Shown piece after piece: positions 11,335 through 14,681 of a stretch of 64,000 bases of DNA. Position numbers and translations under genes: made by a program. Origin of the DNA: Arenimonas sp. (GTDB taxonomy: Bacteria; Pseudomonadota; Gammaproteobacteria; Xanthomonadales; Xanthomonadaceae); contig NZ_JAYSEG010000007.1 of assembly GCF_041913985.1 (NCBI RefSeq), positions 23,670 to 87,669 of the forward strand, written 5' to 3'. Every line of letters starts with the position of its first letter. Position 1 is the first letter of the stretch. Below the pieces are notes generated by a model. That model searched no databases and had not been told where the DNA came from. It worked only from the letters and a program-made list of their open reading frames with translations.

Positions 11335-12231
11335 ATGAAGAATCCCGCCCCGACCCCCGCCTCCGTCCTGCCCGCCGGCGTGCCGGCCTGGCTGACGCCG
11401 CTTGAACTGGGCCTGCTGGCCGGCGTCTGGGGCGCCTCCTTCCTGTTCCAGCGCGTGGCCGCGCCCGAGTTCGGCGCCGCGCCGCTGGTGGAGTTGCGGC
11501 TGGCCTTCGGCGCGCTGGTGCTGCTGCCCTTCCTCTGGCTGGCGCGGGCGAAGCTGCCGTGGCGGCTGTGGCCGCGGCTGGCGCTGGTGTCGGCCATCAA
11601 CACCGCGGTGCCCTTCACCCTGTTCGCCTGGGGCGCCCAGCGCGCGCCGGCGGGCGTGGGCGCCATCACCAACGCCATGGCGGTGCTGTTCACGGCGCTG
11701 GTGGCCTTCCTGTTCTTCCGCGAGCGCATCGCGCTGCGCAAGTGGATCGCGCTGGCGGTGGGTTTCCTGGGCGTGGTGGTGCTGGCCAGCGACAAGACCG
11801 GCGGCGGCGACATCGGCCCCGCGGCAGCCGCCGGCACCTTCGCGGCCTTCCTGTATGGCATCGGCGCCAACCTGGTGCCGCGCTGGTTCGCCGGCCTGCC
11901 GCCGGTGGCGGTGGCCGCGGCCACGCTGGTTTGCGCCTCGCTGCTGACGCTGCCGTTCGCGCTGGCCCAGTGGCCGGCGCAGCCCATTTCGGCGCCGGCC
12001 TGGGGTTCGGCGGTGGCGGTGGGCGTGCTCAGCACCGGCTGGGCGTACGCCATGTACTACAGGCTGATTTCGCGCGTGGGCGCGGCGCGCGCGGTGACGG
12101 TGACCTACCTGGTGCCGCTGGCCGCCGTGGCCTGGGCCTGGGGCCTGCTGGGCGAAGCGCTCACCTGGCCCATGGGCATCGCCTGCGGCCTGATCCTGGG
12201 CAGCGTGGCCATCAGCCAGCGCAGCCGCTGA
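11335..12231 (+). CDS. DMT/EamA family transporter
   Basis: WGASFLF, about 10 hydrophobic segments, VTYLVP..A..W...LLGE. Confidence 0.88.
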   Translation: MKNPAPTPASVLPAGVPAWLTPLELGLLAGVWGASFLFQRVAAPEFGAAPLVELRLAFGALVLLPFLWLARAKLPWRLWPRLALVSAINTAVPFTLFAWGAQRAPAGVGAITNAMAVLFTALVAFLFFRERIALRKWIALAVGFLGVVVLASDKTGGGDIGPAAAAGTFAAFLYGIGANLVPRWFAGLPPVAVAAATLVCASLLTLPFALAQWPAQPISAPAWGSAVAVGVLSTGWAYAMYYRLISRVGAARAVTVTYLVPLAAVAWAWGLLGEALTWPMGIACGLILGSVAISQRSR

Positions 12232-12267
12232 GGGCAAGCCGCGCCCGGCGCGCGGCAAGGAAGGCGT

Positions 12268-12611
12268 CGGCATTCGTCCGGCGCCGGCCCCACCGCGAAG
12301 GCGAGGGTCGCTTCCTGCTCGGTGAAGCCTTTATCTCGCAGGAAGCGACCCTCGCCTTCACGGCGCGTCCGGTACGGGGCGCCCGGTTGGCTGGACGAAA
12401 GGCCCGTGTCTGCCCGCTCCGATGCTTGCGCATCACGCTCGGGGGCCAAGACGGCACATTTTTCTTGCTGATCAGGTTGGGCTAACTCGGTTCAGGCGCG
12501 AACCACAGCGCGCCTCGTCGTTCGCGTCCCTCCGGACGCGGGGTGTGGCTGCTTCGCCAGCGCGGAAGACGGCCAGTGCGAACCGGCTCGCCGCCCGGCG
12601 GCGGGTGTGGG
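12268..12611. ncRNA. Putative structured non-coding element, copy A
   Basis: Perfect 22-bp stem 12297-12318/12338-12359 plus smaller hairpins; colinear homology to the reverse complement of 12686-13027; no credible ORF; active strand unresolved. Confidence 0.6.
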
Positions 12612-12685
12612 TTCGCGGCGGGCACACCGAAGCCTCCGGCATCTGAGCAGACTATCCGGGTTGGCGACGAGCCCTTCGCCTCAGC

Positions 12686-13027
12686 CCCGCACCCGCCGCC
12701 GGGCGGCGAGGACTCTCACGCTGGCCACCTTCCACGCTGGCCCTGCCGCCGCATCAAGTGTCCGAAGGGACACGCAGGCGTGCACGTGCTGGCGGCAAGT
12801 ACGCGGACCAGTTCAACCCACCTGATCGGCAAGAGAAATCGTTCCCTGCGGCCCGGGTCGGGACGCGCAAGCATCGCAGCGCGCGCTATCTGCCCTTCGT
12901 CACGAAACCGGATGTAATGCACCGGCGCCGCCGTGGAGGTGAAGGTCTCCTCCTGCGAAATAAGAGGCTTCACTGAGCAGGAGGAGACCTTCACCTCCGC
13001 GGTGGGGACGGCACCGGATGGATGCCG
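12686..13027. ncRNA. Putative structured non-coding element, copy B (inverted relative to A)
   Basis: Perfect 22-bp stem 12935-12956/12977-12998; its sequence differs from copy A only by compensated substitutions. Confidence 0.6.
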
Positions 13028-13068
13028 CCGAAACCAAAGCCGTGTCCCTGGGGGCCTGGGAGAAGGGC

Positions 13069-13116
13069 AAAAAAATGGCAGGGCCGCCTGTCCCGAAAAC
13101 AGCCGTTAGCCCTGCC
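13069..13116 (-). terminator. Rho-independent terminator
   Basis: Minus strand GGCAGGGC...GCCCTGCC stem (with an inner helix) followed by A and T7. Confidence 0.7.
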
Positions 13117-13265
13117 AAAGGGTGTCAACGCCAGGGGGCGGTTGACTTCAAATTGACTGCCGGGAGCCTCGACGAGGAGAGGGGGGGGGCCGGCGCAGGG
13201 CCACTGGACCACTTTCGGCGCCGGGCCGGCAAGGCCGCCCGGGAAGGAAAGGCAGGCTGGTCTGC
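13069..13265 (-). ncRNA. Candidate ~200-nt sRNA with C-rich segments
   Basis: Bounded by a promoter-like TTCGCG-N18-TAGTGT and an intrinsic terminator; contains the hairpin GTCAAC-C-GCC-CCCT-GGC-GTTGAC and a C9 run. Confidence 0.45.
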
Positions 13266-13271
13266 TCACAT

Positions 13272-13301
13272 ACACTAACGTCTTCACTTTCCGCCCGCGA
13301 A
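13272..13301 (-). promoter_or_regulatory. Candidate sigma70-type promoter
   Basis: TTCGCG-N18-TAGTGT, the same layout as TTCGCG-N18-TAGAAT upstream of pyrG in this window. Confidence 0.4.
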
Positions 13302-13379
13302 AATGCCGCTGGGCGCCCCAACCGCGCAGCAAATCCGGACAAGCTTTGGCTAGTTATGCTTTCGGGGGCAGCAATGCTG

Positions 13380-14681
13380 TCACCGGGTCGACGGAACGCC
13401 CGCCGCCTCGCGCTCGCGGCGGCCATGCGCCCGCGCCAGCGACCAGCCCGTGAATGCCCAGCCCAGGGCCAGCGCCGCGCCGGCCACGGCCACCACCGCC
13501 GGGTGCCCGGCGATGGCGTCCACGCCGGTCTTCACCCAGCCGCTCACGGCGTCGGCGCCGCGGTAGACGGCAGTGTCGATGACGTTCTTGGCCTTGTACT
13601 TGGCCTCGGCCGGCACCGCGGTGAACAGCATCTCGCGGCCCGGCCGGGCCAGCGCGTACTCGCCGGCGCGGCGCGTCACCATCACCACCGCGAACACCGC
13701 GAAGGTGGGCGCCAGCGCCAGCCACAGGAAACCCAGGGCCATCACCACCGGCACCGCGGTGAGCAGCACCACCAGCCCCAGCCGCTGCACGATGCGGCCG
13801 GTGAGGAATAGCTGCGTCAGGATGGCCAGCGACTGCACGATGAAGTCGAGCAGGCCGAACACCCGCGTCTGGTCCTCGCGGTCGGGGAAGTGCAGCTCCA
13901 CCAGCCGCGCCTGTTCGAAGTACAGGAAGGTGGTGACGCTGGCCAGCAGCACCACGAAGGTGGCGATGCCCATCAGGTAGGGCGAGGAGAACACCGTGGT
14001 CAGGCCGGCGAAGGGATTGCCGCCCAGCGGTTCGCGCCGCGCCACGGTTTCTTCCGCGCGCAGCGGGTGGCGGTCGCGCCAGCGCTGCAGCGCCACCGCC
14101 GCGCCGGCCGAGGCCAGCAGCAGCGCGGTGGCCAGCACCATCAGCCCGGCGTGGCCCAGCGGCCCCACCAGCAGCACGCCCAGCAGCGGCCCCAGCAGGC
14201 CGCCGGCGCTGGCACCCGCGGCCACCAGCGCGAACAACCGCTTGGCCTGCGCGGCGGCGAACAGGTCGGCCAGCACGCTCCAGGCCACCGAGATCGCCAG
14301 CAGGTTGAACACCGACAGCCACACGTAGAAACCGCGCGCCACCCAGGGGTTGTCCGGTGCCATGGCGATCGCGGCGGCGAAGGCCAGCAGGTTCAGCGCG
14401 AAGAAGCCGTAGGTCCAGGGCAGGATGCGCCGGCGCCGGGCCCGCGCGGCCAGCAGGCCGAACAGCGGGATGGCGGCGAGCGTGGCCACGAAGGTGGCCG
14501 TGAACAGCCACTGCAGGTTGTCCACGCCGCCGGCGATGCCCATGGTCTCGCGCACCGGCCGCAGCATGAAATAACCGGCGAACAGCAGCAGGAACATCGC
14601 CACGCCGGCCAGCACGGCCGGCGCTTCGTCGGGCGCGACGCCGAACAGCCGGGACAGGAAACGCGAAACGGGTCCCGGCAT
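13380..14681 (-). CDS. MFS transporter, NTP/NDP-exchanger (TLC/NTT)-like
   Basis: YFMLRPVRETMG, W....DLF...QAKRLF, RPGREMLFT...KYKAKNVIDTAVYRGAD. Confidence 0.8.
   Translation of the reverse strand: MPGPVSRFLSRLFGVAPDEAPAVLAGVAMFLLLFAGYFMLRPVRETMGIAGGVDNLQWLFTATFVATLAAIPLFGLLAARARRRRILPWTYGFFALNLLAFAAAIAMAPDNPWVARGFYVWLSVFNLLAISVAWSVLADLFAAAQAKRLFALVAAGASAGGLLGPLLGVLLVGPLGHAGLMVLATALLLASAGAAVALQRWRDRHPLRAEETVARREPLGGNPFAGLTTVFSSPYLMGIATFVVLLASVTTFLYFEQARLVELHFPDREDQTRVFGLLDFIVQSLAILTQLFLTGRIVQRLGLVVLLTAVPVVMALGFLWLALAPTFAVFAVVMVTRRAGEYALARPGREMLFTAVPAEAKYKAKNVIDTAVYRGADAVSGWVKTGVDAIAGHPAVVAVAGAALALGWAFTGWSLARAHGRREREAAGVPSTR

What the first reader, a model, noticed from the sequence alone, without database searches (positions are those of the whole stretch)
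12268..13027. Inverted pair of diverged ~350-nt structured elements with fully compensated 22-bp stems: candidate new ncRNA (or ssDNA) family
Seen: the gap between the DMT and MFS genes holds two homologous, colinear copies in opposite orientation (A 12268-12611, B 12686-13027). Each has a perfect 22-bp stem: A GAAGGCGAGGGTCGCTTCCTGC/GCAGGAAGCGACCCTCGCCTTC and B GGAGGTGAAGGTCTCCTCCTGC/GCAGGAGGAGACCTTCACCTCC. The arms differ at 5 of 22 positions between copies, and every change is matched on the partner arm. A sixth compensated pair (G-C vs A-T) sits just beyond a symmetric 2x2 internal loop. The capping loop is conserved (TCGGTGAAGCCTTTATCTC vs TCAGTGAAGCCTCTTATTTC). A second hairpin also covaries (GCGTCC-N4-GGACGC at 12524-12539 vs GTGTCC-N4-GGACAC at 12758-12773). 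Sequence blocks such as ATTTYTCTTGCYGATCAGGT and CGATGCTTGCGC are kept while the linkers drift. Inference: selection acts on local fold and loop sequence, not on coding or on A-to-B pairing (the A/B differences would create A.C and G.A mismatches). This points to two paralogous functional RNAs or ssDNA structures. I do not recognise them as tmRNA, RNase P, SRP, 6S or a riboswitch, and no RT, transposase or nuclease gene is adjacent.
Basis: partly seen in the sequence, partly recalled or inferred. Interest (0 to 1): 0.88.

Follow-up and report, generated by a model that had tools for sequence, protein, structure and literature searches.

The report
Foldback transposon with two structured arms
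The two hairpin-rich copies are the two arms of one ~800-base gene-less repeat found about ten times per genome in one group of Arenimonas bacteria, likely spread by a known transposase (ISL3), and each arm keeps a strand-specific fold that likely works in RNA but whose job is untested.

Summary
Observation confirmed: perfect 22-bp stems, 5/22 compensated changes, no Rfam family. But this is not a solitary pair of ncRNA genes. It is one copy of a dispersed ~800-bp element (arm + variable centre + inverted arm). There are at least 7 loci in this genome, 10 pairs in a single-contig relative, matches in 25 of 83 genus genomes (2 spurious) and in 0 of 150 other genomes of the order. The site is empty in several relatives. 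33 of 141 distinct ends match the terminal repeats of an autonomous Arenimonas ISL3 (at least 15/20; background 4/942), and 5 of 9 two-ended copies show a 7–8/8 match of the 8-bp flanks, as ISL3 does. So it is most likely an ISL3-moved foldback MITE; the window copy's ends are eroded. The structural claim survives and strengthens. Across 121 arms the long stem shows 178 double changes, G·U over A·C 45:7 on the centre-outward strand, and a near-invariant tandem G·A. 105 of 141 ends have no ISL3 trace, so the arms outlast the transposon ends. Their function is inferred (RNA processing or protection of read-through transcripts), not shown. An IS30 inserts in the conserved loop in two genomes.

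The parts
11335..12231 (+). DMT/EamA-type transporter gene (host, left flank; points into the element)
   Evidence: TIGR00950, below cut-off
12256..12263 (+). Likely eroded left copy of the A-rich target (CAAGGAAG here; CAAAAAAA in the orthologous G082 copy). The left ISL3 end is not detectable in this copy
   Evidence: (10/20 to ISL3 ends)
12275..12611 (-). Arm A (~335 nt); the folded, centre-outward strand is the window minus strand
12281..12374 (-). Long hairpin of arm A: perfect 22-bp core 12297-12318/12338-12359, extended to ~28 bp with G.U on the minus strand, 2x2 tandem G.A loop, one closing pair, conserved ~14-nt loop (12319-12337 in all)
12327..12328 (.). Loop position equivalent to where an IS30 is inserted in other copies of this genome (not in this copy)
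12524..12539 (-). Second 6-bp hairpin of arm A (2 of 6 pairs covary across the family)
12589..12603 (.). Inner GC palindrome of arm A, bordering the centre
12612..12685 (.). Variable centre; 100% identical in G000 C2, C7 and C22, present in the opposite orientation (82%) in C3 and C41; about 35-220 nt and unrelated in other genomes
12686..13022 (+). Arm B (~335 nt); the folded, centre-outward strand is the window plus strand
12694..12708 (.). Inner GC palindrome of arm B
   Evidence: (sequence)
12758..12773 (+). Second 6-bp hairpin of arm B
12922..13015 (+). Long hairpin of arm B: perfect core 12935-12956/12977-12998, tandem G.A loop, conserved loop 12957-12976
13050..13069 (-). Eroded ISL3-type terminal repeat (12/20, below my 15/20 threshold, but at the ~50-nt offset seen in intact extended ends; the orthologous G082 copy scores 17/20 at both ends)
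13068..13075 (+). A-rich target tract (CAAAAAAA), single in empty alleles
13076..13260 (.). Separate conserved host non-coding block present at empty sites too (not part of the element)
   Evidence: no Rfam match
13380..14681 (-). MFS-like transporter gene (host, right flank; points into the element)
   Evidence: weak TIGR00880 match

Best explanation
The pair is one ~800-bp gene-less palindromic repeat (arm, variable centre, inverted arm) dispersed in a group of Arenimonas genomes, likely a foldback-type MITE moved by an ISL3 transposase, whose arms each keep a conserved fold that likely acts in RNA. Shown: it is multi-copy, has filled and empty sites, carries ISL3 terminal repeats on about a quarter of ends, has 8-bp A/T-rich flank matches, and sits at gene 3' ends, often just past intrinsic terminators. 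Inferred step 1: an ISL3 transposase from elsewhere inserts the unit into A/T tracts beside terminators. The ends then erode and the copy is stranded, as in this window. Inferred step 2: recombination and conversion between copies and between stem halves homogenise the arms and flip the centre. Inferred step 3 (least certain): an insertion cuts a gene off from its terminator, so the transcript runs through the element and, from either side, ends with a 'sense' arm. That arm's ~28-bp hairpin would be an RNase III-type processing site or a 3' exonuclease block. This would make insertion tolerable in either orientation and keep both arms under selection.
For: Copy number and spread. Empty alleles of the window site in G003, G014, G017, G035, G067 and G076 and in a contig of run X18. 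ISL3 identity of the autonomous element: NF033550, 339 bits against a cut-off of 180; 1311-1312 bp with perfect 8-bp duplications in 3 of 3 copies. Its 20-21-nt end matches element ends at up to 100% in G000. 33 of 141 distinct ends score >=15/20, against 4 of 942 background windows, mostly at offsets 19-20 or ~50. One copy is bounded by a left-type and a right-type ISL3 end (L276). Flank matches in 9 two-ended copies: 8, 8, 7, 7, 7, 6, 5, 5, 1 of 8. The autonomous ISL3 also lands in A/T tracts, in several copies next to terminator-like hairpins. 45 of 141 ends have a terminator within 70 nt, against 0.3% of 3000 random windows. The neighbouring gene points into the element at 85 of 123 ends, away at 17, unclear at 21 (heuristic). 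Arms group by genome and by left/right subtype. Strand-specific fold. Precedent for MITE RNAs acting through RNase III or on mRNA stability: passages of PMC2229807 and PMC3184786.
Against: 105 of 141 ends show no ISL3 trace, and a position-specific test for eroded repeats in them was not significant (best z 1.6). So ISL3 origin of those copies is assumed. No ISL3 transposase was found in G000, G014, G015, G023 or G034; of 23 credible carrier genomes only G086 (intact) and G082 (contig-end pieces) have one. Most flank matches lie in A/T runs, so they carry little information. Only AAACAAAA (L057) and the C50/C22 pair (AAGTGAAA/AAATGAAA) are non-homopolymeric. A DDE transposase needs no 330-nt structured arm, and the arm interior has no detectable ISL3 ancestry. 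The processing-site idea does not explain the conserved loop or the conserved, non-covarying blocks in the arm middle. No transcript was shown. Some sites are filled in several distant genomes, which old insertion with loss explains as well as repeated insertion.
Confidence: 0.6

Rival explanations
1. The arm-centre-arm core is a selfish element in its own right. Each strand ends in the same structured 3' domain, which an unidentified enzyme recognises as RNA or ssDNA to copy or home the unit next to terminators. ISL3 ends were captured later in some lineages.
For: 105 of 141 ends lack ISL3 repeats, yet the arms stay conserved. The fold is strand-specific with a near-invariant tandem G.A and a conserved loop. 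Short tandem duplications of the arm's outer 20-40 nt recur, triple in L242. The single-contig genome G014 has 10 pairs and no ISL3, IS110 or RT match.
Against: No arm was found beside any RAYT, IS110, RT or ISL3 gene in the fetched loci. IS110 occurs in 3 and RT in 5 of the 25 matching genomes. G000's RT is an ordinary group II intron. The idea that the loop guides insertion to terminators ending in GCC was not supported (8/45 vs 29/242). Outer duplications and stem deletions also follow from replication slippage at a hairpin.
Confidence: 0.17
2. The arms are host-useful small RNAs (~330 nt) transcribed outward from the centre. The ISL3 ends merely amplified them.
For: The centre-outward strand is the folded one (G.U 45 vs A.C 7, p 7e-8, with no such bias in the unpaired middle). 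Sequence blocks are conserved across arms about 69% identical on average. Some sites are occupied across several genomes.
Against: No sigma-70-like promoter in 12100-13450. The centre differs in length and sequence between genomes and flips. The family is missing from 58 of 83 genus genomes searched, including near-complete ones. Copies are often truncated, collapsed or interrupted by IS30 in the conserved loop.
Confidence: 0.13
3. There is no RNA role. The covariation comes from DNA-level palindrome repair (one stem half copied from the other) and gene conversion in a decaying MITE family.
For: Double changes (178) outnumber single mismatches (82) on the tree, more than stepwise RNA evolution usually leaves (the expectation is my own knowledge). 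A collapsed copy carries a re-homogenised hybrid stem (L044). G000 copies are mosaics.
Against: Repair is strand-symmetric and cannot by itself give 45:7 G.U over A.C, nor keep a non-Watson-Crick 2x2 G.A loop in 120-121 of 121 arms.
Confidence: 0.1

Closest known systems
ISL3-family insertion sequences and bacterial MITEs (Correia/NEMIS, RUP, ERIC)
   Same: No gene; terminal repeats shared with an autonomous IS of the same genus; 8-bp AT-rich target as reported for the ISL3 member ISCg1 (PMC8715038 passages); intergenic, multi-copy, filled and empty sites; structured transcript predicted.
   Different: ~800 bp against the ~100-450 bp listed in PMC3184786 (table passage); ~330-nt inner inverted arms unrelated to the IS body; local folds in each arm instead of one end-to-end stem; three quarters of ends lack the terminal repeat.
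YPAL/RU-2 of Yersinia
   Same: GC-rich palindromic repeat, target next to dyad symmetry, filled and empty sites, proposed effect on upstream RNA stability (PMC2229807 passage).
   Different: YPAL is ~168 bp, has 3-26-bp duplications and no named transposase; this element is five times larger, two-armed and ISL3-ended. No sequence comparison with YPAL was run.
bcr1 of the Bacillus cereus group; CIR of Caulobacter
   Same: Mobile or dispersed repeats with compensatory changes (bcr1), or two independently folding arms joined by a linker (CIR) (PMC3184786 and PMC2229807 passages).
   Different: 110-155 bp; other phyla or classes; arms not two homologous 330-nt domains.
REP/REPIN/BIME with RAYT
   Same: Inverted doublet at gene 3' ends, one functional strand per half, target of other IS elements.
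   Different: No GTAG-tagged 20-40-bp unit; the RAYT genes fetched are flanked by other repeats, none matching the arm.
Drosophila Foldback-type elements (recalled, no paper read)
   Same: Long inverted arms, variable centre, internal duplications, inversions and asymmetric deletions.
   Different: Eukaryotic, different transposases; a likeness of architecture only.

Membership tests
MITE of the ISL3 family | No transposase or other protein gene inside | tested here: met
   No match of arm translations to ISL3 profiles (best E 0.22-0.34); frequent 1-nt indels across the alignment
MITE of the ISL3 family | Terminal inverted repeats matching an autonomous ISL3 | tested here: met
   33 of 141 ends >=15/20 vs 4 of 942 background; met for the family, not for the window copy (10/20 left, 12/20 right) nor for 105 ends
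MITE of the ISL3 family | 8-bp target duplication | tested here: inconclusive
   8, 8, 7, 7, 7, 6, 5, 5, 1 of 8 in 9 two-ended copies; mostly A/T runs; consistent but low in information
MITE of the ISL3 family | Dispersed copies with filled and empty orthologous sites | tested here: met
MITE of the ISL3 family | Mobilised in trans by the transposase | not testable with these tools
   Element and intact ISL3 co-occur in G086; no assay possible
Known Rfam ncRNA family | Score at or above the gathering threshold | tested here: not met
Structured ncRNA (any) | Covarying, strand-specific secondary structure | tested here: met
   limited to the long stem, the 6-bp hairpin and the inner palindrome; none found in the arm middle
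Structured ncRNA (any) | A discrete transcript | tested here: inconclusive
   Only assembled contigs were available; none of the two true RNA runs (one study) covered the arms
REP/REPIN (RAYT-associated) | The repeat flanks a RAYT gene | tested here: not met
   No arm match in the RAYT loci fetched, a subset of those listed
IS110/IS1111 bridge or seekRNA | Homology to the non-coding end of an IS110 element | tested here: not met
   No arm match in 29 IS110 loci of the genus
Group II intron or retron | Intron domains or a linked RT | tested here: not met
   No Rfam intron match in the element; RT loci carry no arm; G000's RT belongs to a separate group II intron

The most novel reading that the evidence does not exclude
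The core is a new kind of protein-free selfish replicon. Both strands end in the same ~330-nt structured domain (28-bp stem, tandem G.A, conserved loop) that a host or mobile enzyme reads as RNA or ssDNA to copy the unit next to transcription terminators. It later hitch-hiked on ISL3 ends, and an IS30 now uses its loop as a landing pad.
Probability: 0.17. Interest if true: 0.8.

Novelty: new variant of a known kind. Interest (0 to 1): 0.42.

Why it matters
As a MITE it is an ordinary class, but an unusually large and ordered one. Strong, strand-specific structural selection persists inside a gene-less transposon, even in copies and genomes where the transposon ends and the transposase are gone. 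That makes it a clean, testable case of how a bacterial repeat earns its place at gene ends, or of a repeat being domesticated into an RNA element. It also shows three-tier nesting: terminator, ISL3-ended repeat, IS30 in the repeat's loop. And it warns that covariation screens will call such repeats 'new ncRNAs'.

Tried and rejected
Rfam: no family. Plasmid and phage collections with the whole element and viral contigs with the loop pattern: no match. Promoter and terminator consensus scan of 12100-13450: 0 and 0. Arm as a decayed piece of the ISL3 gene: a short look-alike of the transposase's last codons sits in the arm middle, but DNA and protein profiles gave nothing significant; rejected. 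The extra ~30 nt in extended ends as ISL3-derived: 10-13 of 26 identical; not claimed. Eroded ISL3 ends in the 105 end-less termini: z<=1.6; not shown. Loop as guide to terminator 3' ends: 8/45 vs 29/242; not supported. A-to-B pairing: no consistent within-element excess. RAYT, IS110 or RT as cognate enzyme: no arm near those genes. Single-copy PF01610 hits at E~1e-5 in many genomes look like one housekeeping gene and were disregarded. Model hits in G063 and G094 are spurious on inspection, an unrelated repeat and a coding region. Expression: runs X19 and X20 (one study, 2-4 million letters, a ~93% identical strain) have a contig over the DMT gene that stops at 12290/12295, at the foot of the hairpin, and nothing inside the arms; X16-X18 are probably DNA. 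This is uninformative either way. Rows dropped: 3 poor or gapped arms before (61 to 58); duplicates merged. Literature searches that found no description of this element: (open-licence library only; subscription papers and the ISfinder database were not searchable; no supplements were read).

Full report
Observation. Both 22-bp stems are perfect, they differ at 5 positions, and the loops and small hairpins are as quoted. Shuffles of the region reach at most 10 bp (100 shuffles). The copies align at 71.8% over 351 nt. Rfam has no match at gathering score here or in six related loci.

It is a dispersed repeat. The window's genome G000 (58 contigs, 89% complete) holds near-complete arms at 7 loci (C2, C3, C7, C8, C22, C41, C47) and pieces at 7 further contig ends. 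The single-contig genome G014 has 10 full pairs and one collapsed hairpin. A sequence-only model of 50 arms matches 25 of 83 genus genomes, two of them spuriously, and 0 of 150 other genomes drawn from the order. An exact loop pattern found 59 loci among the species genomes, nearly all titled Arenimonas or Lysobacteraceae. The contigs titled Rhizobium and Ramlibacter mostly have flanks matching G000 genes and are probably mislabelled. It found 23 loci in metagenomes and none in viral contigs. The unit is arm, centre, inverted arm. Arms group by genome and by left or right subtype. The centre is 35-220 nt, unrelated between genomes, and lies in both orientations among G000 copies. G000 arms are mosaics of one another.

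It has moved. The window site is empty in G003, G014, G017, G035, G067 and G076, where the DMT gene is followed by the same A-tract and downstream block. It is filled in G082 and G034, with the other arm type on the left. A contig of run X18 joins 12234 to 13069 with 22 other letters, an empty allele (one contig, depth 2.9). Many sites filled elsewhere are empty in G000. Some 'empty' sites keep a remnant of the arm's end, so loss by deletion also occurs. 45 of 141 distinct ends have an intrinsic-terminator-like hairpin within 70 nt, against 0.3% of random windows. The neighbouring gene points into the element at 85 of 123 ends by a rough frame heuristic.

The ends belong to ISL3. Many ends read as a 20-22-nt motif beginning GG, preceded by an A/T tract. 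I recalled that ISL3 elements have GG ends and 8-bp duplications, and tested it. Seven of 83 genus genomes have strong ISL3 matches. Three complete copies are 1311-1312 bp with perfect 8-bp duplications and terminal repeats that match the element's ends. The protein is an ISL3 transposase (NF033550). 33 of 141 ends score at least 15/20, against 4 of 942 background windows; 3 score 14 and 105 score below 14. Nine copies have both ends, with flank matches of 8, 8, 7, 7, 7, 6, 5, 5 and 1 of 8; the 1/8 case (L192) joins flanks of two different sites. These flanks are mostly A/T runs, so the duplication evidence is consistent but weak. An 8-bp AT-rich target is reported for the ISL3 member ISCg1 (PMC8715038, passages). 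In the window copy the left end is gone and the right scores 12/20: a stranded copy. Against this reading: three quarters of ends show no trace even in a position-specific test, and no ISL3 transposase was found in G000, G014, G015, G023 or G034. The arm interior is not ISL3-derived by any profile I built. An earlier AI note on another genome (e1-5234361) reached the same ISL3-MITE reading. I saw it after my own test and count it as no independent support.

The fold is real and strand-specific. On 50 arms, 96.8% of cells pair, 27 of 36 pairs change on both sides, 0 of 500 shuffles reach this, and slid controls give 41-46% (the shuffles ignore relatedness). On 121 arms the stem extends to 28 bp with 25 covarying pairs; no covarying helix appeared in the arm middle, which keeps sequence blocks only. 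Parsimony on a tree gives 178 double changes, 45 changes to G.U and 7 to A.C on the centre-outward strand (binomial p 7e-8). The unpaired middle shows no such bias (C>T 0.035 and A>G 0.048 against G>A 0.043 and T>C 0.048 per base). The 2x2 loop is G.A in 121 of 121 and A.G in 120 of 121 arms on that strand, which fits a sheared tandem G.A pair (motif recalled, not from a call). So a single strand is under selection: minus for arm A, plus for arm B. RNA is likelier than ssDNA but they cannot be separated here. The excess of double over single changes suggests that hairpin-templated repair adds to the signal (inference).

Other enzymes. No arm lies near the RAYT, IS110, RT or ISL3 genes fetched. 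RAYT is common in carriers and non-carriers alike (66 of 83) and is flanked by other repeats. The RT of G000 is a separate group II intron.

Mechanism. Shown: repeat status, filled and empty sites, ISL3 ends on a quarter of termini, site preference, strand-specific fold. Inferred: ISL3 mobilisation in trans; erosion of ends; conversion among copies. Inferred and weakest: function. An insertion beside a terminator leaves one gene reading into the element, and symmetry means the transcript always ends with a sense arm whose long hairpin lies just inside the far end. I commit to this hairpin being an RNase III-type processing or 3'-protection signal, by analogy with NEMIS and YPAL (PMC2229807 passages; PMC3184786 passages). 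It does not account for the conserved loop or middle blocks, which is why the selfish-replicon (0.17) and host-sRNA (0.13) rivals stay open. RNA data were uninformative.

IS30 in the loop. Four of four IS30 ends assembled in G000 abut the conserved loop at the same two bases. In G086 two of four flanking ends (apparently one insertion) do so one base away, and the other two lie in another repeat. Ends in G091 and G094 lie elsewhere. The transposase is IS30 (NF033563).

Verdict. Not a solitary pair of ncRNA genes, and not an artefact. It is a genus-restricted, foldback-type MITE with unusually large, structurally selected arms. Eight literature searches found no description. PMC3733652 was read in passages only, and PMC12288879 was seen only as a listing. 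New variant of a known kind; interest 0.42.

Noticed in passing
G000 C10 end, C22 start, C41 start, C47 end; G086 L431, L448, L443: An IS30 (NF033563) inserts in the conserved loop of the long hairpin with an apparent 2-bp duplication, at nearly the same base in two genomes. In G086 it also hits a different repeat (L439, L446).
   Followed up: yes
window 13069-13260: Conserved non-coding block with several hairpins and C/G-rich loops, ending in a T-tract on the minus strand, present downstream of the DMT gene in at least 8 relatives with or without the element. Candidate host sRNA; no Rfam match.
   Followed up: partly
G000 C2:38326-38848, C21:15212-15767, C17:18085-18533: A second ~450-bp imperfect palindromic repeat family (3 copies). 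It occupies two sites where other genomes carry the element studied here, and L113 joins one arm to a piece of it. No similarity to the arm.
   Followed up: partly
L195:1465-2690: An element whose left arm is interrupted by ~1.2 kb of lower-GC DNA with short ORFs and attC-like GTTAGGC/GCCTAAC sites (likeness recalled), bounded by its own inverted repeat; possibly a gene-cassette array.
   Followed up: no
G000 C20:17185-17267 and orthologues (L045, L047, L052, L067, L078, L276, L280): The terminator behind an inositol-monophosphatase-like gene (name by eye, not from a call) is filled in at least 6 genomes and empty in G000. A hot spot or an old insertion; in L052 the terminator is present on both sides as an inverted copy.
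   Followed up: partly
G000 C1:39148-39801 (L322): Group II intron with a 573-aa RT/HNH-type ORF, shared with G082 and G086.
   Followed up: partly
G000 C24, C30, C6, C19 (L031-L034): Four Y1 tyrosine-transposase genes; C30's is flanked by long AT-rich inverted repeats. A GTAG-type REP is abundant at contig ends.
   Followed up: no
L044, L094, L054: Collapsed derivatives in which the two arms have fused through their stems, leaving one hybrid hairpin of 100-300 bp; L094 keeps both ISL3 ends and an 8/8 flank match.
   Followed up: yes
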